The position numbers were made by a program, and so were the translations under genes. A stretch of 34,046 bases of DNA. Source: a virus. Below are positions 1-34,046 of the stretch, in pieces. A model generated the notes under the pieces. That model saw only the letters and a program-made list of their open reading frames with translations. It was not told where the DNA came from and did not search any database. Location: IMG/VR virus record IMGVR_UViG_3300045988_161943. One strand, written 5' to 3'. The number at the start of each line of letters is the position of its first letter. The first letter of the stretch is position 1.

Positions 1-55
1 CCCTCAGTCGGACATGATAGATAACATCCCTTGGCATCGCGCAGGTTGGCACCGC
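1..55. repeat. Terminal redundancy copy 1 (identical to 33992-34046). This is an assembly overlap of a circular or circularly permuted genome.
   Basis: ccctcagtcggacatgatagataacatcccttggcatcgcgcaggttggcaccgc is present at both ends. Confidence 0.9.
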
Positions 56-578
56 GCAGGTAGGCACCGCACAGGTAGGCACCGCACAGGTTGGCACCGC
101 GCAGGTCGGCATCGCGCAGGTAGGCACCGCACAGGTAGGCACCGCACAGGTCGGCACCGCGCAGGTCGGCATCGCACAGGTTGGCACCGCGCAGGTAGGC
201 ATCGCGCAGGTCGGCACCGCGCAGGTCGGCACCGCGCAGGTCGGCACCGCGCAGGTCGGCATCGTACAGGTCGGCATCGCACAGGTCGGCGCCGCGCAGG
301 TCGGCGCCGCGCAGGTCGGCATCGCGCAGGTCGGCACCGCGCAGGTCGGCATCGCGCAGGTCGGCATCGCGCAGGTCGGCATCGCGCAGGTTGGCACCGC
401 GCAGGTTGGCACCGCGCAGGTCGGCATCGCGCAGGTCGGCATCGCGCAGGTTGGCACCGCGCCTAATAGCTTCCAAAACCGTTTCGGTGATTGTGTTTCC
501 CTCTTTCGTGTATTCAAATACGACCGAACCCGTCCAACGGTTGCGGATTTCGATTTTAATCTGTTTCGTTGATTCCAT
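1..578 (-). CDS. Pentapeptide-repeat protein, N-terminal part (first 192 codons). The gene crosses the circular junction and continues 33991->33691, giving a 292-aa product.
   Basis: ATG at 578-576. My translation is MESTKQIKIEIRNRWTGSVVFEYTKEGNTITETVLEAIRR followed by 28 x [G/D]A[D/N/Y]L[R/C/Y]. There is no in-frame stop down to nt 1. The phase joins 33991 exactly (578+301=879 nt=293 codons). It is missing from the ORF track because it runs off the window edge. Confidence 0.85.
   Translation of the reverse strand, partial: MESTKQIKIEIRNRWTGSVVFEYTKEGNTITETVLEAIRRGANLRDADLRDADLRGANLRGANLRDADLRDADLRDADLRGADLRDADLRGADLRGADLCDADLYDADLRGADLRGADLRGADLRDAYLRGANLCDADLRGADLCGAYLCGAYLRDADLRGANLCGAYLCGAYLRGANLRDAKGCYLSCPTE
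39..458. repeat. Tandem array of 28 x 15-nt units (gc[g/a]caggt[c/t/a]ggc[a/g][c/t]c). This is the coding repeat of the pentapeptide protein.
   Basis: I counted the units one by one: 28 consecutive in-register 15-mers with variation confined to about 4 positions. Confidence 0.95.
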
Positions 579-951
579 TGTGGTAAATTTGTTTATCCGG
601 ATTCATGTATTGATTTGCGGCAGCAATAGCATCTTCGAGCGTGCGAACTACAACATACTTGTTCCCCGCAGTCTCAAAGGACTCTTGCCATCTTCTCTGT
701 ACGGCACTCTGACGACTGCCCTTTCCCTGTGTCTTGAACTCCAAACCGAGCGATCCATACTTGCCCCTCGGAACGAGCAGAAGCAAATCCGCAGCACCGG
801 CCGTCATACCTTCGGCCTTCATGATTGCGGCTTCGGTCTTACTCCGGAGTCCGCCGTTCGGAACACTCGTCAGACATAGTGCATAGGACGGATATTGCAT
901 CCGGAACCAGCGGACGAACGACTGTTGTATACGAGATTCAACGTGCCTCAT
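556..951 (-). CDS. VRR-NUC family (PD-(D/E)xK) nuclease.
   Basis: Contains ...VPNGG...GMTAGAADLLLLVPRGKYGSLGLEFKTQGKGSRQSAVQRRW..., which fits the VRR-NUC pattern (G.pDl..., ExK, Q..w). I chose the start at 951 because of the ATGA overlap with the stop of the upstream gene (948-951 = tcat). Confidence 0.75.
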   Translation of the reverse strand: MRHVESRIQQSFVRWFRMQYPSYALCLTSVPNGGLRSKTEAAIMKAEGMTAGAADLLLLVPRGKYGSLGLEFKTQGKGSRQSAVQRRWQESFETAGNKYVVVRTLEDAIAAANQYMNPDKQIYHNGINETD

Positions 952-1535
952 TTGCGCAGACTGTTTCCATTGAACGCAACACGATAGCACAGGTATTTAA
1001 TACGGTCATATATCCGGTCACCATAGCGTTCCTTGATGCCTTCACCCGACAGATTTGAGGAAGCTATAACCATCCGATCGGGGTTATCCTGCACCTTGTT
1101 CACGATCTCGACTACCACATTCCGGCGTGTACCGAATTCGACGCGATCCACCTCTACACCTATATCGTCCAATGCGATGAACTTGCGTTTTAATACCTCG
1201 TCGATACATACGTCCTGCGCTCCGCAGTCCACGACCGTAACGATTCGATTAGCGAACTTGCGCAACAGCATGGGAATGGCGTAGCGGGTTATCAGGGATT
1301 TTCCGCGTCCGCAATTACCGAACAGCAAAAGTCCCTTACCGTTGCTATCCGACAACCACGCTGCAACCTTGTCGTATTCGGGAAGCCATACCAATCGTTC
1401 TCCCATTGCCGACAGCACAGTAACCAGCGCGTTTTTCAATTCCGTCCGCGCATCGGGTATCCGAAACCGGAAGCGTGCGCATGGAGCCGGATTACCCTCA
1501 GTTTGTAGTTGTTTGAGTATTTCTTCGTAAGACAT
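948..1535 (-). CDS. DnaC/IstB-like AAA+ ATPase (helicase loader).
   Basis: Walker A GNCGRGKS and Walker B FIALDDIG. It sits directly after the replication initiator gene. Confidence 0.75.
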   Translation of the reverse strand: MSYEEILKQLQTEGNPAPCARFRFRIPDARTELKNALVTVLSAMGERLVWLPEYDKVAAWLSDSNGKGLLLFGNCGRGKSLITRYAIPMLLRKFANRIVTVVDCGAQDVCIDEVLKRKFIALDDIGVEVDRVEFGTRRNVVVEIVNKVQDNPDRMVIASSNLSGEGIKERYGDRIYDRIKYLCYRVAFNGNSLRK

Positions 1536-1537
1536 AT

Positions 1538-2413
1538 TCAGAATTCATCATAATGTTGAGTCGGTTTTGCATGGTAGGTCGTAGCCGGATGCCGAGTGTT
1601 CGAACGGGGCAACGACGTTTCATTACGCCGACGCGCCCAATTCAGAAATGTCAGATAGGCCGAACGATTGCGTTTCAGCAAGGGTTCGTAGTTATGCATC
1701 GCGCGCAATAGGTCGCAGATGAAGTCAAGAGCATAAGCCTCTTTTAAAGCCGAGAATTGCGCCTCGGAAAAAGGCTCTTTCATTTTCGCGACTCGCGGTG
1801 CATTTTCCGAAATCCATTGTTGAAACTCCAAGAACTCGCGGGAGGGGGTGCCGCGGAACTGGGGGAGGGTGTTGGAGGAGTCAGTTACCTCTGCCTTCTC
1901 CGAGAAGGGCGGTAGTACGACTATCTCCCCATTAGGGGGATTATAGGGGGTAATATTATTCTTGTCTAGTCTATCTTCTATACAAGAAGTATCGCCTTCG
2001 TTTTGGCTTCGTTTTTGGCTTCGTTTTTGGCTCCGTTTTTGGCTCCGTTTTTGGCTCCGTTTTTGGCTCATGTTTTGGCTCATATTTAAGCCAATTGAGC
2101 CATTTGAAACGATGCCTGATTCGGGATTCGGTTCTTCAACGAATGAAAAAGCTGTGCGGTTCCCCTTCCCGCGTCCTCCCGTTATGATATGTAACAGACC
2201 CGCTTGCTCCAATCGGTTTTTTGCTCTCGAAATTGCATTGCGTGACGCCCCTACATTCTCGGACAGCCTTCTGTCGGAATGCGTGAAGCTATTCGGCCAG
2301 CCTAACCGATTCGCTTGTTCTACAAGGTAGAAGTAAAGCCTCGATTCACAGCAGCCAAATTGCCACGTTGCATCCAATTGCCAAAATTTGCGTATCAGGT
2401 CTATATAGCTCAT
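1538..2413 (-). CDS. Replication initiator / replisome organiser: N-terminal winged-HTH, an SQKR-repeat linker and a DnaD-like C-terminus.
   Basis: MSYIDLIRKFWQLD...NVGASRNAISRAKNRLEQAGLLHI (HTH). The start at 2413 is supported by an ATGA overlap (2410-2413). The ORF-track start at 2500 would overlap the upstream gene by 90 nt. Confidence 0.7.
   Translation of the reverse strand: MSYIDLIRKFWQLDATWQFGCCESRLYFYLVEQANRLGWPNSFTHSDRRLSENVGASRNAISRAKNRLEQAGLLHIITGGRGKGNRTAFSFVEEPNPESGIVSNGSIGLNMSQNMSQKRSQKRSQKRSQKRSQKRSQNEGDTSCIEDRLDKNNITPYNPPNGEIVVLPPFSEKAEVTDSSNTLPQFRGTPSREFLEFQQWISENAPRVAKMKEPFSEAQFSALKEAYALDFICDLLRAMHNYEPLLKRNRSAYLTFLNWARRRNETSLPRSNTRHPATTYHAKPTQHYDEF
1994..2088. repeat. About 8 tandem 12-nt units (ggct[t/c]cgttttt and degenerate ends) inside the initiator gene. 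These are candidate origin iterons.
   Basis: Direct reading gives gccttcgtttt / ggcttcgttttt x2 / ggctccgttttt x3 / ggctcatgtttt / ggctcatattta. An AT-rich stretch at about 1941-1990 lies next to it. Confidence 0.8.
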
Positions 2414-2778
2414 AATCGCATCCTCTCTTTCTCGAAACTTATCATCGTGCGAAGGTTGTCGCATTGGTGCTTGCACGCCGCATTGATCCGATCCAGCCAC
2501 TTTTCAAGGGCATTCAGCTCGGAAGACGCACTGCCGATCAGTTTGTTCGCAAGCGACGGGGAAAGGCTGAGAATAGTCTCTTTCTCGTCGTGAAACAGCT
2601 TGGCCACAGCTGCATCGCGCATTCCGACCACCTCGCTCAGCAACGCCCCGCTGCGAGCATAATATACACCCAGTTGATCCAGCTGCCCCACCATCGAATC
2701 GATGTCGGAAAAAGTCGTACATTCAAGAAGATTCTGGATGTCTCGCGCCTCCCTGCGTATCTGTTCGATCCTTGTCAT
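2410..2778 (-). CDS. Hypothetical protein (122 aa).
   Basis: Intact ORF in the operon, with its stop coupled (ATGA) to the initiator gene. Confidence 0.6.
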   Translation of the reverse strand: MTRIEQIRREARDIQNLLECTTFSDIDSMVGQLDQLGVYYARSGALLSEVVGMRDAAVAKLFHDEKETILSLSPSLANKLIGSASSELNALEKWLDRINAACKHQCDNLRTMISFEKERMRL

Positions 2779-2929
2779 GACGTTTGTTTATTTTCTTCAA
2801 TAACAACCTTCCGCGGCGTAACGCATCCAATTCCTTTGCAGTCAGCAACGTATGCCCGCGGATGCGGGACAGGACGCGGAGGATGCGGAGCGCTTCCCGC
2901 GCCTCCGCATCGGTAATCCGCATATCCAT
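2723..2929 (-). CDS. Hypothetical small protein (68 aa).
   Basis: The ORF starts 3 nt after the stop of the upstream gene. It overlaps the next gene by 56 nt, so the call is uncertain. Confidence 0.4.
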   Translation of the reverse strand: MDMRITDAEAREALRILRVLSRIRGHTLLTAKELDALRRGRLLLKKINKRHDKDRTDTQGGARHPESS

Positions 2930-2931
2930 CG

Positions 2932-3228
2932 TCAGAAGGGAAGATTATCCGTATTATCCGCTACGGGCAAATCGGAGACTTGATCCGGCGTAGGTTCCGC
3001 AGGACGGAAGATAACTGACTTGCCTCGGCCGACATACGTGCGCGCGTCTTTTCGTTCGCGTTCCTCTTTGCTCTGACGGATGAATACGCAGTGCGTATTC
3101 TCGTACTGATCCGGCTGGCGAAGCTCCGAAACGCATATCGAAATGTCCTTCTTGCCGTTTTCGGCGACGAAAATTTTGTCTCTGGGAATATCGCTCACGC
3201 AGAGCGATACATTGATTAAATCTGCCAT
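2932..3228 (-). CDS. Putative small ssDNA-binding protein with an SSB-type C-terminal tip.
   Basis: It ends ...VADNTDNLPF, resembling the acidic D-D-D-I-P-F tip of bacterial SSB. It is located between recombination and replication genes. Confidence 0.45.
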   Translation of the reverse strand: MADLINVSLCVSDIPRDKIFVAENGKKDISICVSELRQPDQYENTHCVFIRQSKEERERKDARTYVGRGKSVIFRPAEPTPDQVSDLPVADNTDNLPF

Positions 3229-3230
3229 TG

Positions 3231-3689
3231 CTACCGTTTTTTGAAGGTTACTTTAAGTGTCGTCTTGCTGCTTCGCGCAGGAGGATAGAAAATTTCGCCC
3301 GTGGCGGGATCCGTCAGGCCGGAGGCCGGCAACGCCCGCAATATCTTCTCCTTCTCCTTGATGTCGGCCATGACCGCATCACGCATTTTGTACAGGTCGT
3401 CCAAAGCCTGGCAATTACAGCCCGAGTAGTCGTACTTGACGCCGGCCTCCACCTCTTCGATCGTACAGTCCGAGGATGTTTTCCCGTGTCCGTATTTAGC
3501 CAGTTCGCGCAACGTAATGTCGCGCACCTCTTCGGACTTCTTGAACAGCTCGATCGCCTTCTCCATGCGGGATATATTCTCGTAAGCGACGAGCGGATCG
3601 ACGTCTCCGCGGGTAACGGCGTCGACGGCGAGCTTCGCCAGCTCCGTGGGGCTGCTCGTCTCGCGTATCAATACAGGTTGTGTGTTCAT
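3231..3689 (-). CDS. Hypothetical protein (152 aa), in the recombination module.
   Basis: Intact ORF, with an ATGA overlap (3686-3689) with the Rad52-like gene. Confidence 0.6.
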   Translation of the reverse strand: MNTQPVLIRETSSPTELAKLAVDAVTRGDVDPLVAYENISRMEKAIELFKKSEEVRDITLRELAKYGHGKTSSDCTIEEVEAGVKYDYSGCNCQALDDLYKMRDAVMADIKEKEKILRALPASGLTDPATGEIFYPPARSSKTTLKVTFKKR

Positions 3690-4360
3690 ATTTTCTGCTG
3701 TTTACTGTTTAGATATTCGTCGTAAAATTTGGCGAAGACTACCGCCGTCATAGCGTCCGCATCGTAAGTGCGACGAAGGAAGGCGATGACATCGAATTTC
3801 GTCGGGTCTTTGACCGTCGTACTGCCCTTGTACGCCCAGCGCATGAACTGATCGCGCAAGACCGGATCGCTCAGCATATCGGCCGTGATCCGTTTCTTCG
3901 GAGCTGCCTGCACGGCTGCGGCAGCCGGTATCGGGTCGGGAGCAGCCGGCAGGCGTTGCACGGAGCTCTGAGGTGGCGCCCCCGCGCCGGTCTGTCTGCC
4001 CTTGAATACCTCGGCTCCGATACCCAACCAGGAACAAACCTTCGTCAGCGCATCCGTGGTCGCTCCCTTGCAGGCGTCGCCCAGATCGGCGTTATCGTTG
4101 CCGCCAAAACACTCGTAATAGATGCCGTATTCAGGTATCGAAAAACGTAGCTTGACGACGACCATGCGCTCGGAACGTTCGACGATCTCCGTCTCCACAC
4201 GCCATGAGCCTACGCCGAAAACCTCGTTGAGCCGTTCCGTTACATAAATCGACTTGATAGACGACAGGAACTTCTTCGTCGGATGCTGCGAGACGGCTTC
4301 ATCGGGAAGACGTCGATCCAATGCCGCCTTCTGTTCGGGGGTGATAGTTCGTGTTTTCAT
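3686..4360 (-). CDS. Rad52/Rad22-family single-strand annealing protein.
   Basis: Contains ...ECFGGNDNADLGDACKGATTDALTKVCSWLGIGAEVF..., which matches the conserved Rad52-type motif (..AeSDAlKR...fGiG..ly). Confidence 0.75.
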   Translation of the reverse strand: MKTRTITPEQKAALDRRLPDEAVSQHPTKKFLSSIKSIYVTERLNEVFGVGSWRVETEIVERSERMVVVKLRFSIPEYGIYYECFGGNDNADLGDACKGATTDALTKVCSWLGIGAEVFKGRQTGAGAPPQSSVQRLPAAPDPIPAAAAVQAAPKKRITADMLSDPVLRDQFMRWAYKGSTTVKDPTKFDVIAFLRRTYDADAMTAVVFAKFYDEYLNSKQQKI

Positions 4361-4971: not shown

Positions 4972-5598
4972 TTAGAATTTTGCATGTTGACGATTGTAGA
5001 TTCTCCGCATGGAGTTCATCAGATCGGGGAACGTCCGGATATACCCCATATCGACCGAGAAAGCCAGTTTGCGTTGCAGGTCGTCCAACGCCCGAAGCTG
5101 ATTCGGCGATGCCGTGTTCCGGATGTCGCGTTCATGCTTGTTGAAGACGATCCAGTTCAAACCCCGCGCAACCTGAGAATAATCCACATCCGGAAGCGCG
5201 GCGATCGACCGTGCAAGTACGTTGTAGTTGTCGCCCGCATGATGCCGGTACTCGATCAGCTGGTCGTAAACGAATTTCACGACTTTAACCTCGAAGCGGG
5301 GATTGAGCCGCATCGCAAACTTCACGAACAGGTACGGGTGCATCCATGTACCGCCGTTGTATTTGCCGCGTGTTTTTAAATATGCCAAATTTGGCACCTT
5401 TAAATTTTCCTCCTCCATCAGCGCCTCGATGAAATCTTTGGTGTTCTGATTTTCAAAGAAGTCCTGTATTCGTTTGTTGCTGTTCTTGGCTTTGTTCCAT
5501 TGCGCAAGCAACGACGTCGCGTTGAACATGCCGTCTCTCGTGCGTTGGTATACCTCGAATTTACCCAGCGGGCGGGTCATGATGACATTGCTTTTCAT
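4972..5598 (-). CDS. KilA-N domain DNA-binding protein.
   Basis: Contains ...FNATSLLAQWNK...KTRGKYNGGTWMHPYLFVKFAMRLNPRF..., typical of KilA-N. Confidence 0.65.
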   Translation of the reverse strand: MKSNVIMTRPLGKFEVYQRTRDGMFNATSLLAQWNKAKNSNKRIQDFFENQNTKDFIEALMEEENLKVPNLAYLKTRGKYNGGTWMHPYLFVKFAMRLNPRFEVKVVKFVYDQLIEYRHHAGDNYNVLARSIAALPDVDYSQVARGLNWIVFNKHERDIRNTASPNQLRALDDLQRKLAFSVDMGYIRTFPDLMNSMRRIYNRQHAKF

Positions 5599-6762: not shown

Positions 6763-6780
6763 TTGTTTTTTTTTATTTTG

Positions 6781-6851
6781 TCGCGCCGGCAGGATTCGAA
6801 CCTGCGACTTCACCTCCAAAGGGTGACGTGTTGCCCCTACACCACGGCGCA
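6781..6851 (-). tRNA. tRNA-Gln (anticodon UUG), 71 nt, no encoded CCA.
   Basis: Hand-folded: acceptor UGCGCCG/CGGCGCG (U1-G72 wobble), D arm GUG-UAGGGGCAA-CAC, anticodon arm UCACC-CUUUGGA-GGUGA, T arm GCAGG-UUCGAAU-CCUGC, discriminator A. Confidence 0.85.
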
Positions 6852-7082
6852 CTGGATTCATTTGTCCCGGTGGTCCTCGCCGCTCGTGTCGTCGCAGCTT
6901 CGGAGCCTGTGCCGGTTTGTTGCGCTTCGGCTATTCGCCGTCGCGGGGCTGTCTCTTCGAGTCTTGCCCACGACCCGCCGATTTGGGTATTATCGGCCTA
7001 CCCGGTACTCTTTCTGCCCTTGCGGGCTGGGGTGATTTTGCCAGAGCACCAAACCCCTCACCTCTGCGGGTGGCTATCGTTG
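6852..7082 (-). ncRNA. Candidate structured RNA, copy 1 (231-nt GC-rich spacer between tRNAs).
   Basis: No credible ORF. Local helices include GCCC-GCAA-GGGC (GNRA loop on the minus strand; plus 7016-7027), GCCGAT/ATCGGC (6977-6982/6992-6997), interleaved GGGTA/TACCC (6985-6989/6999-7003), and CGGC/GCCG plus GCG/CGC (6922-6944). Confidence 0.45.
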
Positions 7083-7153
7083 TGGTGTAGGCAGGATTCG
7101 AACCTGCGACTTCACCTCCAAAGGGTGACGTGTTGCCCCTACACCACGGCGCA
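7083..7153 (-). pseudogene. Chimeric tRNA copy: tRNA-Gln(UUG) body joined to the 3' acceptor strand of the upstream tRNA-like gene.
   Basis: Identical to tRNA-Gln from the 5' end through the T arm. The 3' strand is CUACACC-A, which cannot pair with the 5' UGCGCCG. Confidence 0.6.
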
Positions 7154-7384
7154 CTGGATTCATTTGTCCCGGTGGTCCTCGCCGCTCGTGTCGTCGCAGC
7201 TTCGGAGCCTGTGCCGGTTTGTTGCGCTTCGGCTATTCGCCGTCGCGGGGCTGTCTCTTCGAGTCTTGCCCACGACCCGCCGATTTGGGTATTATCGGCC
7301 TACCCGGTACTCTTTCTGCCCTTGCGGGCTGGGGTGATTTTGCCAGAGCACCAAACCCCTCACCTCTGCGGGTGGCTATCGTTG
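7154..7384 (-). ncRNA. Candidate structured RNA, copy 2 (identical to 6852-7082).
   Basis: Part of the 302-bp repeat. Confidence 0.45.
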
Positions 7385-7487
7385 TGGTGTAGGCAGGATT
7401 CGAACCTGCAACGAGCCGTTAGTCGCGAGTCGGCTCTCGTACCGATGACGTCTATCCTTCGTGCGTCTACCATTCCGCCACTACACC
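7385..7487 (-). tRNA. Non-canonical 103-nt tRNA-like gene (type-II-like). The anticodon is unresolved.
   Basis: It has a perfect 7-bp acceptor GGUGUAG/CUACACC, a Leu/Tyr-like D arm GCG-GAAUGGUAGA-CGC and a canonical T arm GCAGG-UUCGAAU-CCUGC. The anticodon region only forms an imperfect stem (CGAAGG/UCAUCG, loop AUAGACG). The 33-nt variable region has a 6-bp stem GAGCCG/CGGCUC and a 12-nt loop. Confidence 0.55.
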
Positions 7488-8720: not shown

Positions 8721-9986
8721 ATGGAACTGCAACCCATCCAAAGCAAGATATACGAAATCCGAGGCCAGCGGGTGATGCTGGACTTCGATTTGGCGGAACT
8801 CTACCAAGTGGAGACCCGAACACTCAAACAGGCGGTACGACGCAATATTGAGCGTTTCGAAGGCGACGATTTTATGTTTGAACTCTCGGATAACGAGTAT
8901 AACGCATTGAAAGACAGAATAAGGTCACAAAATGTGATCTTAGAAATCGACGAACTCGTCGCACGCATCAAATCAGGATTGAAAGGCGGAGAGCGATTCC
9001 GGCTCGATTTCATAGCGTATATGAGGCAGGAAGCGGCGCGGATGAATTCCGGTACGGCATCGATTTACATGACAGCCCTCAACGCGCTGAGACGATACAT
9101 TGGCCGCGATACGCTCGACATCGGCGAGATCACGGCACCGTTCATCAAAGGATTCGTGCAATTCATCGAATCGGAGCCTTCGCAACGAGGCGCCAACCGA
9201 AAGCAGAAAGGTGAAACTGCAACCAAAAACAAGGGCAACAGGGCACTGTCTCTGTATATTTCGCGCATCAAAACCATCTATAACCGCGCGAAGGAAGAGT
9301 TCAACGATGAAGAACTCGGACAAATGAATATTCTGGGCAACCCTTTCAGAAACTTGCGCCTCGAAACACCCGCGCCGACGGCCAAACGAGCCATCTCCGC
9401 GGAGTCGATACAGCAGATAATCGACTTGCCGCCACTCGCCAACGAACGCGCTCGGATGGCGCGGGATTGCTTCCTCCTGTCGTTCGCACTGATGGGGATG
9501 AACAGCGCCGATCTGCTGACCTGCCCGCCGGCCAGGAAGGACGAAATCGTGTATTTCCGGCAAAAAACCGCATCCCGCCGCACGGACCGTGCAGAAATGC
9601 ACGTTCGGATAGAGCCGTGCGTCAGCCCTTTGATCGCTCGCTATTCGGATAAGACGGGGAAACGGCTGCTTCACTTCTACCTCCGCTACAAAGATCGCGT
9701 GTCATTCAACAAAGCGATCAACAAAGGCCTGAAAGATGTCGGCGAGGCGATAGGCGTCGATGGCCTGACGTTCTACGCTGCGCGGCACTCCTGGGCAACC
9801 ATAGCGCGGACTCCCCGAGAGGAGGGCGGAGCCGGACTGGACAAATACGTGATTCATGAAGCGTTGAATCACGTTGACACATCCATGAAAGTCACCGATA
9901 TTTACCTCGTGAAAAACTGGCGTGTCATTTTCGACGCCAACAAAGCCGTAATGAATCTTTTCGATTGGAGCGGAATCGGGAAATAA
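8721..9986 (+). CDS. int: Tyrosine recombinase (integrase) with an N-terminal partial ORF6N domain replacing the usual arm-binding domain.
   Basis: The N-terminus MELQPIQSKIYEIRGQRVMLDFDLAELYQVETRTLKQAVRRNIERFEGDDFMFEL is an ORF6N signature. A SAM-like domain follows (TASIYMTALNALRRYIG...FIKGFVQFI). Catalytic motifs are YFRQKT, ARHSWAT, HEALNH and TDIYL. Confidence 0.85.
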   Translation: MELQPIQSKIYEIRGQRVMLDFDLAELYQVETRTLKQAVRRNIERFEGDDFMFELSDNEYNALKDRIRSQNVILEIDELVARIKSGLKGGERFRLDFIAYMRQEAARMNSGTASIYMTALNALRRYIGRDTLDIGEITAPFIKGFVQFIESEPSQRGANRKQKGETATKNKGNRALSLYISRIKTIYNRAKEEFNDEELGQMNILGNPFRNLRLETPAPTAKRAISAESIQQIIDLPPLANERARMARDCFLLSFALMGMNSADLLTCPPARKDEIVYFRQKTASRRTDRAEMHVRIEPCVSPLIARYSDKTGKRLLHFYLRYKDRVSFNKAINKGLKDVGEAIGVDGLTFYAARHSWATIARTPREEGGAGLDKYVIHEALNHVDTSMKVTDIYLVKNWRVIFDANKAVMNLFDWSGIGK

Positions 9987-9999
9987 TTCCGGCAACGAG

Positions 10000-10575
10000 T
10001 TATCGGAACACGGCCCATCCTATTTTCGTGCCGACATATTGTTTTTCCCGGATCGGATCATACCCTACTATGACCTCACCGCTCCATCGGCCTCTCGTAT
10101 AGCGTCCGTAGATGCCCGCCCACTGGTTGTATGGATCGATTCCGAGGGCGAGCCCCATTTCCCAGCGCGGCGGCCGCACCTCAGTATGCAGTTTTGTAAC
10201 CGTAATCTCACGGAAAACCGGCTTTACTACGGCCGAAGCCCGCAACAGCCGGTTTTCTCCTACGGTCGCATCAACAAGGAATGTTCCGGTCGAATCGGCG
10301 GAGAAATCCAGCCGGTAATCCCGTTCGAGCAGATAGTCGGCGATGATTGCGGCTGTATCTACACTCATGTATTTCCACACCGTATCGGCCGGTTCGCGCA
10401 CCGCGACCGGATAAGATTCCCGAATGGTGTCGTACACGGGAACCGGCCACGGCACCCATCGGGTAACGGTGCTGTCGCGCATTTCGACGGAAGCCGCCCC
10501 GCGGCGGTAGCCCCAGCCGAAAAACAGTGAACCGACGATGAGCACGGCCAACAAGTATGCGAGCAGTCGTCTCAC
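10000..10575 (-). CDS. Membrane-anchored protein, last gene of the lysis cassette (possible spanin-like or OM-disruption role).
   Basis: N-terminal TM segment RRLLAYLLAVLIVGSLFFGW, a beta-rich C-terminus ending ...GWAVFR. The GTG start overlaps the endolysin stop (GTGA at 10572-10575). Confidence 0.55.
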   Translation of the reverse strand: MRRLLAYLLAVLIVGSLFFGWGYRRGAASVEMRDSTVTRWVPWPVPVYDTIRESYPVAVREPADTVWKYMSVDTAAIIADYLLERDYRLDFSADSTGTFLVDATVGENRLLRASAVVKPVFREITVTKLHTEVRPPRWEMGLALGIDPYNQWAGIYGRYTRGRWSGEVIVGYDPIREKQYVGTKIGWAVFR

Positions 10576-10976
10576 AGATGCAACACCTGCCTTCGGTTCT
10601 TCCCGTCGGCACGGTATGAAATATGGATCCAGCGGCCCCGATTCTCGTCGATGAGCTGGTCGAAGGGGATCGCGCTGGCTGCGATGCGTTCGAACAGCCG
10701 CAGATTATCCGCGACGCTGCCGGTGGTGATGTCGGCCGCTTCGCCCTTCATGTGCTGACTTGCCGCAGCTCCGCCGACGGCTGCGTTGAGCGCCGGCGAT
10801 CGGTAGCCGCTGTTCACGCCGATCGGCTTGCCCCAAAGTTCGCGCACGGGATCGAGGCATTCGTCCATCAGCGCATTGAGCCGGCGAATGACGTCGTGCG
10901 ACGGCGCGTTGTCGATGCTGCGCGCTGCGGCCGTATCGGAACGCAGCAATTCGGAAAGGGTGAAATACGTTGCCAT
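10572..10976 (-). CDS. Endolysin, peptidase M15 (D-Ala-D-Ala carboxypeptidase-like) family.
   Basis: SGYRSPALN, SQHMKGEAADI and WIHISY are metal-ligand and active-site motifs of M15A/M15_3. Confidence 0.8.
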   Translation of the reverse strand: MATYFTLSELLRSDTAAARSIDNAPSHDVIRRLNALMDECLDPVRELWGKPIGVNSGYRSPALNAAVGGAAASQHMKGEAADITTGSVADNLRLFERIAASAIPFDQLIDENRGRWIHISYRADGKNRRQVLHL

Positions 10977-23105: not shown

Positions 23106-24368
23106 CTAAGGCTCGGCAGCCGGTTTCTGCAAGGCGGCGATAATGGTCGCGAACGCGCCTTTGACGAACGCCCCCTGATCGACCGATGCGAAGTACGAGT
23201 GCAGACGCTCCTCGCAGATGACCGTGAAGAGATTCTTCTGGAAGTCGTCGTCGACCCACCCGAATTCGACGCGAATGCCTTTGTACGGGCGAACGTTCCA
23301 TTTGCTCGTATCGGCAACGAGGAAATCGCCGGCCTTGACGTAGGTCGATTCCACGATCTCCACCCCGCGGATGAGCCGGAACAGCTCGTCCGAGATGTAG
23401 TGACCCGTCGAATCCTTCGTCAGGTCGATGGAGGCCCGATCCGAAGGGTTGAGCATCACCACGTCGGGATAGAAGTTCAGGTTCCGCATCTGGAGGATCG
23501 CTGCGCGGATCGCATCGGCCTTGTTCGCCATTTCGACCGTCCCGTCGAGCGCGGTGGCCGTATAGGTGGCAGCAGCCGTAAAGATGCCTTTGAGATTCAC
23601 GCCCGTGCCGTCACCGGTGAGCAGCTGTTTCGTGCGTTCCTGAACGAGCGACGTGCGCAGCATGTTGTCGATCTCCGACTGCATATAGTCGAAATCGTCG
23701 CGCATCTCGTAGGAGATTTTGGCCGATACGGCCACTTTCTTCGCCGTCGACGTCTCAGGGACATACGACCAGTCCATAGCGGGCTTCAAGGCCCCCTCGG
23801 CGATGAATGCAGGGGCGCCGTTGCCGGGCTTGCGATCCACCCACGTGATATTGGGCGAGTTGGTCGAGCCCTTGAACAATCGTTCTACGACGCGCGTGTC
23901 TTCGCTCGGCGCGTAATGGATAGTGCGGTCTACTTCGGTGTTGAGCGCTGTAACCGCCGCGGTATTGGCCGCCACGGTGATCGTCGTAGCCGCCGCTTTG
24001 ATCTCCAGTTCGAGCGCCGTATTGCGTTTCTCCGCGAAAGCGCGTTTCGCCTCGTCGCTCGAAAGGAACGCCTTGATCTGCTCGCGGATCGTGCGGCCCT
24101 TGCCGGCTCCGCCGCTCATCGAACGGCGGATCTCGCTCCCCTGCTCCTTGAGAGCCTTCTCGATCTCCGCGATCTTCTCGGCCGACACGCCCAGTTTCCC
24201 GAGCGACGATTTTACCGACTCGACGATCTCTTCCTCCGATTTGATCCCCTCGGCCAGCATTTCGAGCTGGTCGTTGATGTGCTTGCCGAGCAATTCCATG
24301 CCCTTGCGATCCACGTCCGAGAACTCCCCGCTGTCGGGCAGTTCGAATTTCTTGAATTTGAATGCCAT
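23106..24368 (-). CDS. Major capsid protein, HK97 fold, with an N-terminal delta (scaffolding) domain.
   Basis: 420 aa, immediately after the prohead protease. It has a coiled-coil N-terminus of about 100 aa and then capsid-like sequence. Confidence 0.8.
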   Translation of the reverse strand: MAFKFKKFELPDSGEFSDVDRKGMELLGKHINDQLEMLAEGIKSEEEIVESVKSSLGKLGVSAEKIAEIEKALKEQGSEIRRSMSGGAGKGRTIREQIKAFLSSDEAKRAFAEKRNTALELEIKAAATTITVAANTAAVTALNTEVDRTIHYAPSEDTRVVERLFKGSTNSPNITWVDRKPGNGAPAFIAEGALKPAMDWSYVPETSTAKKVAVSAKISYEMRDDFDYMQSEIDNMLRTSLVQERTKQLLTGDGTGVNLKGIFTAAATYTATALDGTVEMANKADAIRAAILQMRNLNFYPDVVMLNPSDRASIDLTKDSTGHYISDELFRLIRGVEIVESTYVKAGDFLVADTSKWNVRPYKGIRVEFGWVDDDFQKNLFTVICEERLHSYFASVDQGAFVKGAFATIIAALQKPAAEP

Positions 24369-24373
24369 GTTTT

Positions 24374-25069
24374 TCAGTTTTTGATTTGACCTAATTTTTC
24401 GAATACCGAACTGCGTGAAGTGAGTGGCGCGGGGGCCGGCTCGGCTTTGAACATCGACAGTATTCTGCTGTGTACTTTTTCGTATTCATCGGGCGCGGTC
24501 TCCCGTAATGCCTTGACATATCGTTCCATGTCGTCCAAGGCTTTCATGTCGCCGATATACTCCGTGTGCTCGTTGGCGCCGAAGGTGACGACCGAAATCT
24601 CGTGCAGAATAATCTCCTTCACGATCAGGCAGTCGAGGTCGGGATCGTAATCGCATTTGTCCCATACATACCGATAGCCTATCGAGAACTGGTTGAGCAC
24701 CCCTTCGTGCATCTGCACCCATGCGCGGCGAGCGTCCGGCACGGCATCGAAATCCGAGAGCTGCACCGTGGCGTATCCGCCGTCGTCCTTCTCCTCGATC
24801 GACAGGATGCGGCCGATCGGGTTCTTCGTCTCGTGCTGCCACAGGAATTGTATCTTCCGGTTCGTCGCAGAAGCCGGCCCGCGCTCCTGAATACTCTTGC
24901 TGATGCAACCCTTCATCAGCATGTCGCCGTCCGAATCGACCGTTCCGAACGAACAGAACTTCACGAGAATGATGTGTTTCTCCTCGTCCACGACATCGGC
25001 CTTCAATATCGGCGCTTGCTTGAAAGCCCCGCCGCGGCTCATGACTTTTTTATACAGTAGTTTGTCCAT
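24374..25069 (-). CDS. Prohead serine protease (HK97 / S78 family).
   Basis: FGTVDSDGDMLMKG..., FLWQHE...PIGR and IILHEISVVTFGANEHT are typical motifs. Confidence 0.8.
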   Translation of the reverse strand: MDKLLYKKVMSRGGAFKQAPILKADVVDEEKHIILVKFCSFGTVDSDGDMLMKGCISKSIQERGPASATNRKIQFLWQHETKNPIGRILSIEEKDDGGYATVQLSDFDAVPDARRAWVQMHEGVLNQFSIGYRYVWDKCDYDPDLDCLIVKEIILHEISVVTFGANEHTEYIGDMKALDDMERYVKALRETAPDEYEKVHSRILSMFKAEPAPAPLTSRSSVFEKLGQIKN

Positions 25070-26319: not shown

Positions 26320-26330
26320 TGCACATAGCC

Positions 26331-26385
26331 TTTGAAGCAAATGTAAGGGCGATAAAAGAGGGTTCTCCGAACTTTTCGCTGTTTT
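26331..26385 (-). promoter_or_regulatory. Late promoter site B: conserved upstream element plus a TACATTTG box.
   Basis: Minus sense: TGAAAAACAGCGAAAAGTTCGGAGAACCC-N-TACATTTGCTTCAAA. The spacing from GTT to TTTG is 28 nt. Confidence 0.6.
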
Positions 26386-32176: not shown

Positions 32177-32650
32177 TTAATTTTTCATGAAGCACATCCA
32201 TATCGTTTTTCCGTGTTTGGATGTCGGGTGTCCGAACAACGGTTTATAGGGGATGATGTCCAATATTTGCCGAACTTTTATCTGATCCTCGTTCCATTTG
32301 AATATCAGAATTCCTTCCGGCTTCAAGACCCGCATACATTCATCGAAAGCAGCACGTATATCCGTTTCCCAAGAAGGAAGAAGCATTCCGTATTTCTGAG
32401 CCAACCATGACGTGCCGCCTAATTTTCTGAGGTGCGGCGGATCCAATACAACCAGCCGGAACGATTCATCGTCGAAAGGCATAGCCCGAAAATCTCCGAC
32501 TATGTCGGGATCCACCTTGATATGACGCCCATCACAAGCGATGAGTTCCTCGCGGCGAATATCCATAAACAGATCTTCTGAACAACGTTTGTCGAACCAC
32601 ATCATACGGGATCCGCAGCATGCATCGAGAATCTTTTTGTCTGTCTTCAT
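32177..32650 (-). CDS. Small SAM-dependent DNA methyltransferase (motif I LDACCGS, motif IV DPPH).
   Basis: KILDACCGSRMMWF, FRLVVLDPPHL and MRVLKPEGILIFKW. Confidence 0.65.
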   Translation of the reverse strand: MKTDKKILDACCGSRMMWFDKRCSEDLFMDIRREELIACDGRHIKVDPDIVGDFRAMPFDDESFRLVVLDPPHLRKLGGTSWLAQKYGMLLPSWETDIRAAFDECMRVLKPEGILIFKWNEDQIKVRQILDIIPYKPLFGHPTSKHGKTIWMCFMKN

Positions 32651-32798: not shown

Positions 32799-33677
32799 TC
32801 ATTCGCATAATCCGTAATAACTCATGCAGCTCGTAGCCGTGTCGTCGTCGAACAAACTGCCCGTCGCGTTCTGCCACTCGACATACCGCACGACATCGCG
32901 GATGTATGGGTATTTGTTACCGTTGATGATTGCATGGGTCGGGATCTTACTCGATCTGAAAAACGTGGATCGCAATTCATTTTCGATTTTTGCAATGTAG
33001 TCGATCCGCTCAGGGGATTGCCGAGCAAGACTGAGAATGTCCCGATGATTCGTCATCACACACGGCCAGCAACCGACACGCTTGTATCCCATCCGGTAGA
33101 GCGGGTTCGGCTCCAACCCTGCGGCAAGGATATAATCTATCACCTGCTGTGCCGACCAGTCGAACACGGGCCGCAACAGATCATCAGCGAACTGCGCCCG
33201 AAATGCTCGTACCTCCTTGCCTCGATAGGAATGTCGTTTCGGTCGGCCGTTTTTGTCATAACCGTAAGGCTCGAAATAGTACTTGAAATACGTGCATTGG
33301 GCTTGCATTTTGGCCCGCGCCGATGATTCCGCTGCTCGAATGCCTTGAATTATCAGCATATTGTCTTTTACCTCGTCGAGTACATAGTCGATCATCGGCT
33401 TCGTTTTAAGTTCCTCTGTACAAAACCGTGCATAGAAAGAGGGCCAACGCTTTTTCTGCCGCGCGAGATCGACCATCCCGTCGTACTTCTTCGACTTCAA
33501 TGTTACCAAGTCAAGATGCAGCTTGTCGGCGATGCGGTGGATATACTCGTAGGTCAGCGGGTGTTCCCAACCCGTATCACAGAACACCGTCGTGAAATTA
33601 TTGGTGATATGCTCCCGCGTCCAAAGCAACGCCGCAAGGCTGTCTTTACCGCCTGAAAAGGATACGATGACTTTCAT
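32799..33677 (-). CDS. PAPS-reductase / PP-loop ATPase family protein (phage DndC-like).
   Basis: MKVIVSFSGGKDSLAAL (SGGKDS PP-loop) and ...RVGCWPC... The start at 33677 (cat at 33675-33677) is preferred; the track start at 33932 is an extension overlapping the upstream gene. Confidence 0.8.
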   Translation of the reverse strand: MKVIVSFSGGKDSLAALLWTREHITNNFTTVFCDTGWEHPLTYEYIHRIADKLHLDLVTLKSKKYDGMVDLARQKKRWPSFYARFCTEELKTKPMIDYVLDEVKDNMLIIQGIRAAESSARAKMQAQCTYFKYYFEPYGYDKNGRPKRHSYRGKEVRAFRAQFADDLLRPVFDWSAQQVIDYILAAGLEPNPLYRMGYKRVGCWPCVMTNHRDILSLARQSPERIDYIAKIENELRSTFFRSSKIPTHAIINGNKYPYIRDVVRYVEWQNATGSLFDDDTATSCMSYYGLCE

Positions 33678-33690
33678 GGTTTTATCTCGT

Positions 33691-34046
33691 TTAGTACTCC
33701 ACCGCTTCCCTGCGATCGATGAAGAAATGAATACCCGGTGCACATTCGCTCCACCTGTTATCGTCGAAATCCGGAACTTCGACTGTGGCACCGACGGTGT
33801 AGACGAAGTTTTTGTCATGGTCGGAACGAACGGTATCCTCAGTTGCCTTGGTGCCGTCCATGTTCTGAATCTCCATGACGTATGCTTTATCGCAACGGCA
33901 TTTGTGTCCCGTTGCCGAACTGCGCCGTGCATCTTCCGGAATTCGTAATTTTACGATATGCCCAGAGGCTTTTTTCCAACCGATGAAACTACCCTCAGTC
34001 GGACATGATAGATAACATCCCTTGGCATCGCGCAGGTTGGCACCGC
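33691..34046 (-). CDS. Same pentapeptide-repeat protein, C-terminal globular domain (about 112 aa). Positions 33992-34046 duplicate 1-55.
   Basis: In-frame reading is ...GANLRDAKGCYLSCPTEGSFIGWKKASGHIVKLRIPEDARRSSATGHKCRCDKAYVMEIQNMDGTKATEDTVRSDHDKNFVYTVGATVEVPDFDDNRWSECAPGIHFFIDRREAVEY*, with TAA at 33693-33691. The track shows only the internal-Met fragment 33691..33876. Confidence 0.85.
   Translation of the reverse strand, partial: GANLRDAKGCYLSCPTEGSFIGWKKASGHIVKLRIPEDARRSSATGHKCRCDKAYVMEIQNMDGTKATEDTVRSDHDKNFVYTVGATVEVPDFDDNRWSECAPGIHFFIDRREAVEY
33992..34046. repeat. Terminal redundancy copy 2.
   Basis: Exact 55-nt match to 1-55. Confidence 0.9.

What the first reader, a model, noticed from the sequence alone, without database searches (positions are those of the whole stretch)
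1..578. A 292-aa pentapeptide-repeat protein is hidden by the contig break
The supplied ORF track shows only junk alternative frames over 1-466. Reading the minus strand from the ATG at 578 gives a 40-aa N-terminal domain and then 28 perfect pentapeptides, [G/D]A[D/N/Y]L[R/C/Y].

The frame runs off nt 1 and re-enters in phase at 33991. It ends at 33691 after a 112-aa Cys/His-containing globular domain (…GWKK…KLRIPEDARRSS…KCRCDKAYV…FDDNRWSECAPGIHFF…). In total, 879 nt = 293 codons.

Pentapeptide-repeat proteins fold as right-handed quadrilateral beta-helices with 4 repeats per coil, which would make 7 coils here. Some of them (Qnr, MfpA) act as DNA mimics. My count of the repeat region gives a net charge of about -7.

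The gene sits between a VRR-NUC nuclease gene and a DNA-modification cluster. A role in host takeover or anti-defence is plausible, for example a DNA mimic against gyrase, restriction or other DNA-sensing systems. That role is unproven.
Basis: partly seen in the sequence, partly recalled or inferred. Interest (0 to 1): 0.72.

Follow-up and report, generated by a model that had tools for sequence, protein, structure and literature searches.

The report
Phage pentapeptide-repeat protein split by contig ends
The two ends of this circular phage contig join to give an intact 292-residue protein of a known but uncharacterised phage family (pentapeptide-repeat beta-helix plus DUF5758 domain); its repeat surface varies greatly between near-identical phages, but what it does is unknown.

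Summary
Window positions 1-55 and 33992-34046 are identical. Joining them gives a 33,991-bp circle and a minus-strand ORF, 578 to 1 then 33991 to 33691, of 292 aa. It has a 40-aa N-cap, 28 perfect [G/D]A[D/N/Y]L[R/C/Y] units and a 112-aa C-terminal domain.

Relatives carry the same gene unbroken, so the junction is real.

The protein belongs to a known architecture, Pfam Pentapeptide plus DUF5758. This architecture occurs in about 4,000 50%-identity clusters, including mycobacteriophage Cjw1 gp59. AlphaFold2 gives a confident seven-coil beta-helix and a confident beta-rich C-domain. The C-domain has no PDB counterpart, but its fold recurs in giant-virus proteins.

The host is probably Alistipes. 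The phage is temperate and siphovirus-like.

In 50 close relatives the two termini are nearly invariant (pN/pS 0.16). The array ranges from 3 to 32 units, and its outward-facing residues vary (pN/pS about 2.3).

The Qnr/MfpA-type DNA-mimic reading is weakened. Family score cut-offs are missed, and array length and charge are not conserved.

My best inference is a fast-evolving protein-binding surface joined to a constant module, used for counter-defence or host takeover. This is unproven.

It is a new member of a known kind, of moderate interest.

The parts
459..578 (-). Start codon (578-576) and N-terminal cap, codons 1-40 (MESTKQIKIEIRNRWTG...AIRR): beta-hairpin plus helix
   Evidence: Translation. 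AlphaFold2 gives strands 6-12 and 19-26 and helix 30-39, with pLDDT about 58-72. The segment is nearly identical in 50 close relatives.
39..458 (-). 28 tandem 15-nt units encoding [G/D]A[D/N/Y]L[R/C/Y], codons 41-180: predicted seven-coil right-handed quadrilateral beta-helix
   Evidence: unit list. TRF 33-462, period 15, 28.7 copies. Pfam PF00805 E 3.4e-49. pLDDT 88-99. Foldseek to 2j8k and 4ycq, E about 2e-13.
1..38 (-). Degenerate 29th unit (DAKGC) and start of the C-terminal domain, codons 181 to 193; codon 193 is split by the contig break
   Evidence: The reading frame continues at 33991.
33694..33991 (-). Rest of the C-terminal DUF5758 domain (to codon 292), with the invariant GIHFF motif
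   Evidence: Pfam PF19062 E 1e-37, residues 187-289, profile positions 3-105 of 105. Domain model pLDDT 89, pTM 0.83. No PDB match. BFVD matches with TMq 0.7-0.8.
33691..33693 (-). Stop codon TAA
33992..34046 (.). Assembly overlap: exact duplicate of window 1-55, to be removed on circularisation
556..990 (-). Upstream gene, VRR-NUC-like nuclease. Its stop overlaps the start of the repeat-protein gene by 23 nt, so the two lie in one operon.
   Evidence: Pfam PF08774 E 8e-4, below the cut-off. The same gene lies upstream in 40 of 65 related loci.
32799..33677 (-). Downstream gene, PAPS-reductase/DndC/BrxP/SspD-like. Its ATG lies 13 nt after the stop of the repeat-protein gene.
   Evidence: Pfam PF01507 E 6e-30. 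PADLOC BrxP 4e-22 and SspD 4e-21. The same arrangement is seen in L001.
32177..32650 (-). Orphan DNA methyltransferase further downstream
   Evidence: Pfam Methyltransf_11. PADLOC MTase_II 2e-66 and orphan MTase 6e-52.

Best explanation
**What it is (shown).** This is an intact gene of a roughly 34-kb temperate siphovirus-like phage. The host is probably Alistipes or another member of the Bacteroidales. The gene lies in the operon between the replication/recombination genes and the DNA-modification and packaging genes. It encodes a protein with no evident signal peptide or hydrophobic segment, made of three parts: a 40-aa N-cap, a near-idealised pentapeptide-repeat beta-helix of 28 units (7 coils), and a C-terminal DUF5758 domain. 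It belongs to the widespread but uncharacterised PRP-DUF5758 family.

**How it most likely works (inferred).**
- The beta-helix is a rigid, rapidly evolving binding or decoy surface. The inward-facing Ala and Leu are fixed, and the three outward-facing positions of each unit are diversified.
- This surface would engage a variable host or competitor protein, most plausibly a component of an anti-phage defence or a DNA-handling enzyme.
- The invariant DUF5758 domain would supply the constant function: effector, anchoring or oligomerisation.
- Unit gain, loss and shuffling through the near-identical 15-nt repeats would retune the surface quickly.
- The net role would be counter-defence or host takeover during lytic growth.
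For: **Identity and architecture**
- ORF, junction, Pfam domains and fold are established.
- Phage type comes: integrase-like ORF, HK97-type capsid, portal, protease, small and large terminase subunits, Rad52-like annealase and KilA-N.
- A prophage of the same type lies in an 84-kb contig, and its copy of the gene encodes P0173. NCBI names P0173 and the close relative P0130 as Alistipes communis proteins.

**Constant module plus variable module**
- In 50 close relatives the termini have pN/pS 0.16. Among array units pN/pS is 2.1, rising to 2.3 at the three surface codons and falling to 0.41 at the two core codons.
- Across 834 pooled units the variation sits at nt 2, 7, 13 and 14, all non-synonymous. 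Wobble positions are almost fixed, and Leu is invariant.
- Synonymous changes at the same CpG dinucleotides are rare. C6 to T occurs 45 times against 401 for G7 to A. C15 to T occurs once against 334 for C13 to T. Mutation bias alone therefore does not explain the pattern.
- Array size is 3-32 units. The relative with the closest flanks (L012, 2 differences in 456 nt) has an unrelated array.
- Identical 19-unit arrays recur in contigs from three different IMG datasets (L008, L033, L038), so arrays are reproducible and heritable.
- Across the wider family, DUF5758 is always C-terminal, and the N-terminal part varies. It can be canonical or degenerate pentapeptide repeats, BspA-like LRRs or a ParB-like domain. 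In giant viruses it is MORN, HEAT, RING or pentapeptide repeats.

**Gene position**
- In Ralstonia phage BOESR1 (T7-like) the homologue lies ahead of the RNA polymerase gene.
- In Rhizobium phage RHph_TM3_3_14B it lies downstream of the repressor/cro region, and in Cjw1 just past the repressor gene.
- In this clade the next gene is a C5 DNA methylase or a PAPS-reductase-like gene in 57 of 63 loci.

**Precedents (different pentapeptide-repeat proteins, not shown to carry DUF5758)**
- Vibrio phage 24 gene 24_60 counters the RexAB-like Sucellos system. Escape mutations Y112R and N115D were found in the gene; I infer they fall in its repeats (bioRxiv 10.1101/2024.07.02.601686).
- Host-range-bred S. 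aureus phages repeatedly acquired mutations in a pentapeptide-repeat protein (PMC8065394).
Against: - There is no experimental datum for any PRP-DUF5758 protein. No paper in the library mentions DUF5758.
- The synteny evidence comes from closely related phages, so the loci are not independent.
- pN/pS between paralogous units is not an orthologous dN/dS. Concerted evolution, codon bias and an ascertainment bias could all inflate it, because only heterogeneous arrays assemble intact at k=55.
- Some very short arrays (0-3 units), especially from Logan assemblies, may be collapsed repeats.
- DUF5758 shows no recognisable catalytic or binding signature, so calling it an effector or anchor is a guess.
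- Mycobacteriophage homologues all give tblastn matches of about 600 nt. Hypervariability may therefore be special to this clade rather than a family property.
- PADLOC finds nothing, and no anti-defence library was available.
Confidence: 0.4

Rival explanations
1. Qnr/MfpA-like DNA mimic. The acidic beta-helix imitates B-form DNA and binds gyrase, topoisomerase IV, restriction enzymes or other DNA-sensing proteins.
For: - The fold class matches MfpA, QnrB1, AlbG and EfsQnr (Foldseek E 7e-8 to 1e-4).
- The window array has net charge -7.
- The gene lies next to DNA-modification genes.
Against: - Scores are far below the family cut-offs: Qnr 53 bits against 240, MfpA 75 bits against 360.
- The array is uninterrupted, with no loops A or B. 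The end of the chain is a 105-aa beta-rich domain rather than a dimerisation helix.
- Length varies from 3 to 32 units, and array charge from -21 to +5, among phages with near-identical termini.
- About three quarters of the window's units carry a surface Arg (21 in the 28 units).
Confidence: 0.15
2. Passive spacer. DUF5758, with the N-cap, carries the whole function. The beta-helix is a tolerant stalk whose unit number and surface drift through replication slippage and unequal recombination, with no adaptive meaning.
For: - Genes with 0-7 units and intact termini exist.
- Unit number modulo 4 is unconstrained, so complete coils are not required.
- The 15-nt repeats are near-identical and slippage-prone.
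- DUF5758 occurs with many different N-terminal modules.
Against: - Drift predicts synonymous variation comparable to non-synonymous variation. Observed pN/pS at surface codons is 2.3, and wobble positions are almost fixed.
- Most close relatives keep 17-22 units, with 19 the commonest count (14 of 47 genes).
- The shortest arrays may be assembly collapses.
Confidence: 0.2
3. Prophage-encoded defence or superinfection exclusion. The variable solenoid senses a protein of an incoming phage, as repeat sensor domains do in bacterial NLR-like systems, and DUF5758 acts as a toxic or blocking effector.
For: - The phage is temperate, and the gene occurs in prophages inside large Bacteroidota contigs.
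- Pentapeptide repeats are among the sensor repeats of bacterial NACHT/NLR-like defence proteins (bioRxiv 10.1101/2022.07.19.500537).
- A variable part joined to a constant part is a typical conflict-system layout (PMC7159879).
Against: - The gene sits inside the lytic operon and overlaps the upstream gene by 23 nt. It is not a separately transcribed moron near the integrase or repressor.
- It also occurs in Ralstonia phage BOESR1, a T7-like member of the Autographiviridae.
- There is no PADLOC match and no NTPase partner.
Confidence: 0.1
4. The gene is real, but the stated array (28 units in this order) is partly an assembly product: a collapsed, expanded or chimeric path through a repeat that short reads cannot resolve. 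This would coexist with any of the functional readings above rather than exclude them.
For: - The contig break lies at the edge of the array.
- The longest internal exact repeat is 50 nt, just below k=55.
- 14 of 80 related contigs end in the gene.
- L052 carries two tandem copies of the gene, which could be a strain chimera.
- The authors of the Vibrio phage 24 study needed PCR and Sanger sequencing for their repeat gene.
Against: - No 55-mer is repeated in the array, so the path is unique at k=55.
- Identical arrays are recovered in contigs from different IMG datasets.
- The frame is intact in all 65 full-length genes.
Confidence: 0.25

Closest known systems
PRP-DUF5758 proteins of other phages and prophages. 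Examples: Mycobacterium phage Cjw1 gp59 and phage 244 gp59, Ralstonia phage BOESR1 HIBIKMCM_00009, Rhizobium phage RHph_TM3_3_14B EVB67_031, Synechococcus phage B23 gp186, and Alistipes communis 'DUF5758 domain-containing protein'.
   Same: - The architecture is the same: N-cap, pentapeptide repeats, then a C-terminal DUF5758 with invariant P..G..K..P..A.R..R..V..Y..G..F..GIHFF.
- C-domain identity is 41-55% to the phage examples and 98-99% to the Alistipes communis-named proteins.
- The examples inspected lie among mostly unannotated genes outside the structural modules, in two cases beside the repressor/cro region.
   Different: - Here the repeats are near-identical at the DNA level (90%). 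They vary in number and surface residues between near-identical phages.
- The mycobacteriophage homologues give matches of constant length, and the Cjw1 array is much more degenerate in sequence.
- None of these proteins has a known function.
Np275/Np276 (Nostoc punctiforme, PDB 2j8k) and consensus-designed 'beta1' pentapeptide solenoids (PDB 4ycq, 4yc5, 5di5)
   Same: These are the best sequence and fold matches of the array (phmmer E 6e-44 to 4e-27; Foldseek E about 2e-13, 40-49% identity). They are near-idealised A(D/N)LXX repeats forming an uninterrupted Rfr beta-helix.
   Different: They have no DUF5758 domain. They are cyanobacterial or synthetic, not phage proteins. Their functions are unknown or they were designed as scaffolds.
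Qnr, MfpA, AlbG and EfsQnr topoisomerase-protecting pentapeptide-repeat proteins
   Same: They share the right-handed quadrilateral beta-helix and are cytoplasmic. The window protein also has no evident signal peptide or membrane segment.
   Different: - Scores are far below the NCBIfam cut-offs.
- There are no Qnr-type loops.
- The end of the chain is a different domain rather than a dimerisation helix.
- Length and charge are not conserved.
Vibrio phage 24 protein 24_60, a pentapeptide-repeat anti-defence protein against the Sucellos (RexAB-like) system
   Same: It is a phage pentapeptide-repeat protein whose repeat region is hard to assemble. Point changes of the kind seen here (Y to R, N to D) change its activity against a defence system.
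   Different: No Vibrio phage appears among the 158 phage records with a DUF5758 match, so it is probably a different family. The parallel is functional only.
Giant-virus proteins with a DUF5758-like fold (Klosneuvirus KNV1 RING protein A0A1V0SK66, Hyperionvirus MORN proteins, Mimivirus L87)
   Same: The C-terminal domain fold matches, with TMq 0.64-0.81 and E 1e-7 to 5e-4. The layout is also the same: a repeat or adaptor module joined to this domain.
   Different: Sequence identity is only 10-30%. They are eukaryotic-virus proteins with different N-terminal modules. These are predicted structures only, and their functions are unknown.

Membership tests
Pentapeptide repeat proteins (Pfam PF00805; Rfr fold) | Tandem A(D/N)LXX pentapeptides, at least about 8 in register | tested here: met
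   28 consecutive units fit [G/D]A[D/N/Y]L[R/C/Y]. PF00805 scores E 3.4e-49, 164 bits against a 20.2-bit cut-off.
Pentapeptide repeat proteins (Pfam PF00805; Rfr fold) | Right-handed quadrilateral beta-helix with four repeats per coil | tested here: met
   This rests on prediction only. The AlphaFold2 model has pLDDT 88-99 over residues 51-160 and one beta bridge every 5 residues. The top Foldseek hits are solved pentapeptide-repeat proteins.
DUF5758 (Pfam PF19062) | Match to the family profile above the gathering score, over the full length of the domain | tested here: met
   E 1e-37, 128.8 bits against a 26.9-bit cut-off; residues 187-289 cover profile positions 3-105 of 105. The invariant GIHFF motif is present.
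Qnr family | Score above the NCBIfam Qnr model cut-off | tested here: not met
   NF033086 scores 53.2 bits against a 240-bit cut-off.
Qnr family | Loops A and B interrupting the helix, and a C-terminal dimerisation helix (my recollection of the QnrB1 structure papers) | tested here: not met
   The array is uninterrupted. The end of the chain is a beta-rich DUF5758 domain.
MfpA family | Score above the NCBIfam MfpA model cut-off | tested here: not met
   NF000349 scores 75.5 bits against a 360-bit cut-off.
MfpA/Qnr-type DNA mimics | Conserved size and electronegative surface resembling B-DNA | tested here: not met
   Close relatives have 3-32 units and array net charge from -21 to +5.
MfpA/Qnr-type DNA mimics | Binding or protection of DNA gyrase or topoisomerase IV | not testable with these tools
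   This needs a biochemical assay.
Target genes of diversity-generating retroelements | Nearby reverse transcriptase and template repeat; variation confined to positions that are adenine in the template | tested here: not met
   No reverse-transcriptase domain was found among the large ORFs scanned. No formal search for a template repeat was made. TRF reports no other array of this unit in the window. The variable sites include C/T and G/A positions, and the second A of the AAC codon does not vary.
Known anti-phage defence proteins (PADLOC-DB 2.0) | Match to any defence-system model | tested here: not met
   No families match at E <= 0.01.

The most novel reading that the evidence does not exclude
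PRP-DUF5758 proteins would be a virus-wide class of modular adaptors. DUF5758 is a virus-specific fold with no solved structure, shared by phages and giant viruses, and it would supply a constant effector or anchoring function. An exchangeable solenoid (pentapeptide, LRR, MORN or HEAT repeats) would supply target recognition. In the Alistipes-phage clade, near-identical 15-nt units would let the recognition surface be re-tuned by unit shuffling under diversifying selection. That would make it a repeat-based, non-DGR way for phages to keep pace with variable host defences.
Probability: 0.22. Interest if true: 0.7.

Novelty: new member of a known kind. Interest (0 to 1): 0.38.

Why it matters
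**Annotation.** Genes that straddle the arbitrary break of a circular contig are silently lost by ORF callers. Repeat-rich genes are the ones most likely to sit at such breaks.

**Biology.** PRP-DUF5758 is a large family, about 4,000 clusters at 50% identity, found across phages of Actinobacteria, Proteobacteria, Cyanobacteria and Bacteroidota. No function is known for it.

This clade offers a natural experiment. The termini are invariant, while the array differs in length and surface between otherwise near-identical phages. That could be used to find the target.

If the array proves to be an arms-race interface, it would add a repeat-shuffling route to phage counter-defence evolution. It would also give a first handle on a fold shared with giant viruses.

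If it does not, this is simply one more uncharacterised accessory gene.

Tried and rejected
1. **5-methylcytosine deamination.** I tested whether the Arg/Cys/Tyr variation (CGC to TGC or TAC inside GCGC) comes from deamination driven by the C5 methylase that often lies next door. CGC frequency is the same (56%) in arrays followed by a C5 methylase and in arrays followed by a PAPS reductase. Synonymous changes at the same CpGs are rare. Rejected.
2. **Diversity-generating retroelement.** No reverse transcriptase was found, and the substitution pattern is wrong. Rejected.
3. **Zinc-binding Cys/His site in the C-domain.** The cysteines are not conserved in the Mogibacterium-type and phage homologues, and only His of GIHFF is invariant. 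Not supported.
4. **Coil-wise (4-unit, 60-nt) duplication as the main mode of growth.** There is only a weak excess of identical units at lag 1 (z 2.8) and lag 4 (z 2.1), and unit number modulo 4 is unconstrained. Inconclusive.
5. **Solved structure for DUF5758.** phmmer, a profile search and Foldseek against the PDB all gave nothing.
6. **Link to Vibrio phage 24 gene 24_60.** There is no Vibrio record among the DUF5758 hits.
7. **Literature.** No paper mentions DUF5758. No paper was found on hypervariable phage pentapeptide repeats or on Alistipes phages with this gene.
8. The look-up was replaced by homologue loci, and the profile job by a search with the window's own C-domain.
9. **Search with a distant (Mogibacterium-type) C-domain to deepen the alignment.** It returned only 6 proteins.
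10. **Tail-fibre or structural role.** The only support is a PHROG tail-fibre hit at E 0.0025 with no significant stretch, and the gene lies outside the structural module. Rejected.
Full report

Yes. The first 55 bases of the window are identical to the last 55 (1-55 = 33992-34046). This is the usual mark of a circular path written out by a k=55 assembler. Removing the duplicate gives a 33,991-bp circle.

On the minus strand, an ORF starts at ATG 578-576, runs off nt 1, re-enters in phase at 33991 and stops at TAA 33693-33691. That is 879 nt and 292 aa. Residues 1-40 form an N-terminal segment. Residues 41-180 are 28 consecutive pentapeptides that all fit [G/D]A[D/N/Y]L[R/C/Y]. A 29th unit, DAKGC, is degenerate. 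Residues 181-292 form the C-terminal domain.

Tandem Repeats Finder reports period 15, 28.7 copies, 90% matches and score 629 at 33-462. The mechanical ORF list shows only alternative-frame ORFs over 1-466, because ORFs that run off an end are not listed.

**2. Is the junction biological?**

Yes, as far as comparative data can show.
- More than 100 proteins in the public collection cover 100% of the joined protein at 71-86% identity.
- L001 carries an intact 292-aa homologue followed by the same PAPS-reductase-like gene.
- L053 aligns as a single HSP from 1.9 kb upstream through the gene and across the junction, at 95.3% identity.
- L054 aligns from the array across the junction into the downstream gene, at 94.6%.

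The exact unit number is less secure. The longest exact internal repeat is 50 nt, just under 55, and no 55-mer is repeated. Fourteen of 80 related IMG/VR contigs terminate inside this gene.

**3. What is it?**

Pfam gives Pentapeptide (PF00805, E 3.4e-49) plus DUF5758 (PF19062, E 1e-37, residues 187-289, essentially the full profile). The matching PHROG families that cover these domains are all of unknown function.

AlphaFold2 was run with 28 aligned sequences. It predicts a beta-helix with pLDDT 88-99 over residues 51-160 and one beta bridge every five residues. That gives 28 units, or seven four-sided coils. Foldseek places this region with Np275/276 and consensus-designed pentapeptide solenoids (E about 2e-13), and then HetL, QnrB1, MfpA and AlbG. 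phmmer against PDB sequences agrees.

The C-domain modelled alone is confident (pLDDT 89, pTM 0.83) and beta-rich with a terminal helix. It has no counterpart in the PDB by sequence, profile or fold. The best Foldseek E-value is 0.7, with TM below 0.3. Against predicted viral structures it matches many giant-virus proteins at TMq 0.64-0.81. In those proteins the domain follows MORN, HEAT, RING or pentapeptide modules.

A full scan of 1.84 billion representative proteins finds 4,080 clusters with this domain at E <= 1e-3. In the 150 best hits the domain is at or within about 20 residues of the C-terminus in all but three. Most of these have canonical or degenerate pentapeptide repeats in front of it. 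Some have BspA-like LRRs or a ParB-like domain instead.

In GenBank phages the domain occurs in 158 records. Of these, 152 are mycobacteriophages such as Cjw1 gp59, usually annotated 'pentapeptide repeat protein'. NCBI names near-identical proteins from Alistipes communis 'DUF5758 domain-containing protein'.

The protein is therefore a member of a catalogued, widespread, functionally uncharacterised family.

**4. Genomic setting**

The window is a temperate siphovirus-like phage. Its recognisable genes, all on the minus strand except the first, are:
- an integrase-like ORF, 8721-9986 (+);
- an HK97-type capsid gene, 23106-24368;
- a prohead protease gene, 24374-25069;
- a portal gene, 25069-26340;
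- the large terminase subunit, 26386-27651;
- the small terminase subunit, 27602-28192;
- YopX, 30199-30600;
- a Rad52-like annealase, 3686-4360;
- KilA-N, 4972-5598.

The repeat-protein gene lies on the same strand as its neighbours. It overlaps the stop of a weak VRR-NUC-like ORF (556-990) by 23 nt. Thirteen nucleotides after its own stop comes a PAPS-reductase/DndC/BrxP/SspD-like gene (32799-33677), and then an orphan DNA methyltransferase (32177-32650).

The gene for P0173, which NCBI names as Alistipes communis, sits in a prophage of the same type in an 84-kb contig. The same gene also sits in a Mu-like prophage inside a 1.37-Mb contig next to a TonB-dependent receptor gene.

In 57 of 63 related loci the next recognisable gene downstream is a C5 DNA methylase (35 loci) or a PAPS-reductase-like gene (22 loci). 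In distant phages the homologue sits among mostly unannotated genes. In T7-like Ralstonia phage BOESR1 it lies ahead of the RNA polymerase gene. In Rhizobium phage RHph_TM3_3_14B it lies downstream of the repressor/cro region, and in Cjw1 just past the repressor gene.

**5.

I extracted 65 complete genes from related loci. Fifty of them belong to the MESTKQ clade.

- The 40-aa N-segment and the 112-aa C-domain are almost invariant across the clade, with pooled pN/pS of 0.16.
- The array ranges from 3 to 32 units in the 47 genes parsed. The commonest count is 19.
- The relative whose flanks are closest to the window (L012, 2 differences in 456 nt) has an unrelated array.
- Across 834 pooled units from those 47 genes, variation is concentrated at four nucleotide positions:
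  - nt 2, G/A, giving Gly or Asp;
  - nt 7, A/G/T, giving Asn, Asp or Tyr;
  - nt 13-14, giving Arg, Cys or Tyr.
- The Leu codon is invariant at the protein level, and Ala is 94% conserved. Wobble positions are nearly fixed.
- Between units, pN/pS is 2.3 at the three outward-facing codons and 0.41 at the two core codons.
- The variable sites occur in almost all combinations.

CpG mutation bias does not explain this. The synonymous partners of the same CpGs hardly vary. C6 to T occurs 45 times against 401 for G7 to A. C15 to T occurs once against 334 for C13 to T. The pattern is also the same whether or not a C5 methylase lies next door.

Identical 19-unit arrays recur in contigs from three different IMG datasets (L008, L033, L038). 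Arrays are therefore heritable and reproducibly assembled, not noise.

There are caveats. Comparisons between paralogous units are not a formal dN/dS. Only heterogeneous arrays assemble intact. The very short arrays may be collapsed.

**6. How it most likely works**

Shown: the gene, its architecture, its family and its setting.

Inferred: the idealised beta-helix is a rigid surface whose exposed residues and length are retuned by unit shuffling. The invariant DUF5758 domain supplies a constant function.

The pairing of a constant module with an exchangeable repeat module appears across the family and in giant viruses. That is the layout of an adaptor: one part recognises a changing target and the other does a fixed job. 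The gene's position and the DNA-modification neighbours suggest counter-defence or host takeover as the most likely arena.

Two precedents come from other phage pentapeptide-repeat proteins. Vibrio phage 24 gene 24_60 counters the RexAB-like Sucellos system, and its activity is improved by Y-to-R and N-to-D changes in the gene. Host-range-bred S. aureus phages repeatedly mutate a pentapeptide-repeat protein. Neither protein is shown to carry DUF5758. I put this mechanism at about 0.4.

**7. Rivals**

- **Qnr/MfpA-type DNA mimic.** This is weakened. Model cut-offs are missed by a wide margin. There are no loops or dimerisation helix. Neither length (3-32 units) nor charge (-21 to +5; window -7) is conserved.
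- **Passive spacer.** This is compatible with short-array variants and with unit numbers that do not complete coils. It does not explain the excess of non-synonymous variation.
- **Prophage defence sensor.** This is conceivable, since pentapeptide repeats occur as sensors in bacterial NLR-like proteins. It fits poorly with the operon position, with the presence of a homologue in a T7-like phage, and with the lack of any PADLOC match.
- **Structural role.** There is no support beyond one marginal PHROG hit.
- **Assembly artefact.** The reported unit count may be partly an assembly product. This is a separate question from function.

**8. Novelty and verdict**

Its structural interpretation is right. 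Its functional suggestion is only partly supported and remains untested.

The protein is a new member of a known kind (PRP-DUF5758), not a new kind.

Three things are worth carrying forward:
- the constant-ends, variable-surface pattern in this Alistipes-phage clade;
- the absence of any solved structure for DUF5758;
- the recurrence of the DUF5758 fold in giant viruses.

Interest is moderate, at 0.38.

Noticed in passing
window 6788-7409 (tRNA genes at 6780-6851 and 7082-7150, minus strand): A perfect 302-nt tandem duplication (2.1 copies, 100% identity) carries two tRNA-Gln(TTG) genes, about 1.3 kb from the integrase-like ORF. It could be a real duplication, an att-related feature or an assembly artefact.
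   Followed up: no
window 1996-2080, inside ORF 1538-2500 (-): A 12-nt tandem repeat of 7.2 copies encodes an (SQKR)n stretch in a helix-turn-helix protein of the replication region. It may be a low-complexity linker, or iteron-like origin repeats inside the replication gene, as in lambdoid phages.
   Followed up: partly
L052 (IMGVR_UViG_3300045988_173951) 1456-2439 and 2646-3584: Two complete PRP-DUF5758 genes (327 and 312 aa, with different arrays) lie in tandem. Each is preceded by the same 3' end of the VRR-NUC-like gene. This is either a true gene duplication or a chimeric assembly of two strains.
   Followed up: partly
C-terminal domain: window 1-38 plus 33694-33991 (-): The confident DUF5758 model has no fold match in the PDB (best E 0.7). 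It matches giant-virus proteins (Klosneuvirus, Hyperionvirus, Harvfovirus, Mimivirus L87) at TMq 0.64-0.81, where it is fused to MORN, HEAT, RING or pentapeptide modules.
   Followed up: partly
Representative proteins P0349, P0365, P0366, P0396, P0263: DUF5758 also occurs behind BspA-like leucine-rich repeats, a ParB-like N-terminal domain and a GEAWVSG-type repeat. The C-domain is therefore the constant partner of several different N-terminal modules.
   Followed up: no
Related loci L008-L087, the slot immediately downstream of the repeat-protein gene: The downstream slot alternates between a C5 DNA methylase (35 loci) and a PAPS-reductase/DndC/BrxP-like gene (22 loci). Single loci also showed an N6/N4 methylase, a weak radical-SAM-like ORF and a MazG-like ORF there. 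Meanwhile the repeat-protein gene stays in place. This looks like an exchangeable DNA-modification cassette.
   Followed up: partly
14 IMG/VR contigs (for example L037, L039, L045, L048, L050, L051, L056, L064, L065): Contigs end inside this gene, at or near the repeat array. The gene is a systematic assembly breakpoint and will often be missing or truncated in gut virome catalogues.
   Followed up: yes
L007 (ena:ERZ28755345 contig_13012, 1.37 Mb) 10001-10747: The same gene, with near-identical termini, sits in a Mu-like prophage (Mu Gam, Mu F, Mu portal and Mu Gp36 homologues) rather than the window's phage type. It therefore moves between unrelated phage backbones.
   Followed up: no
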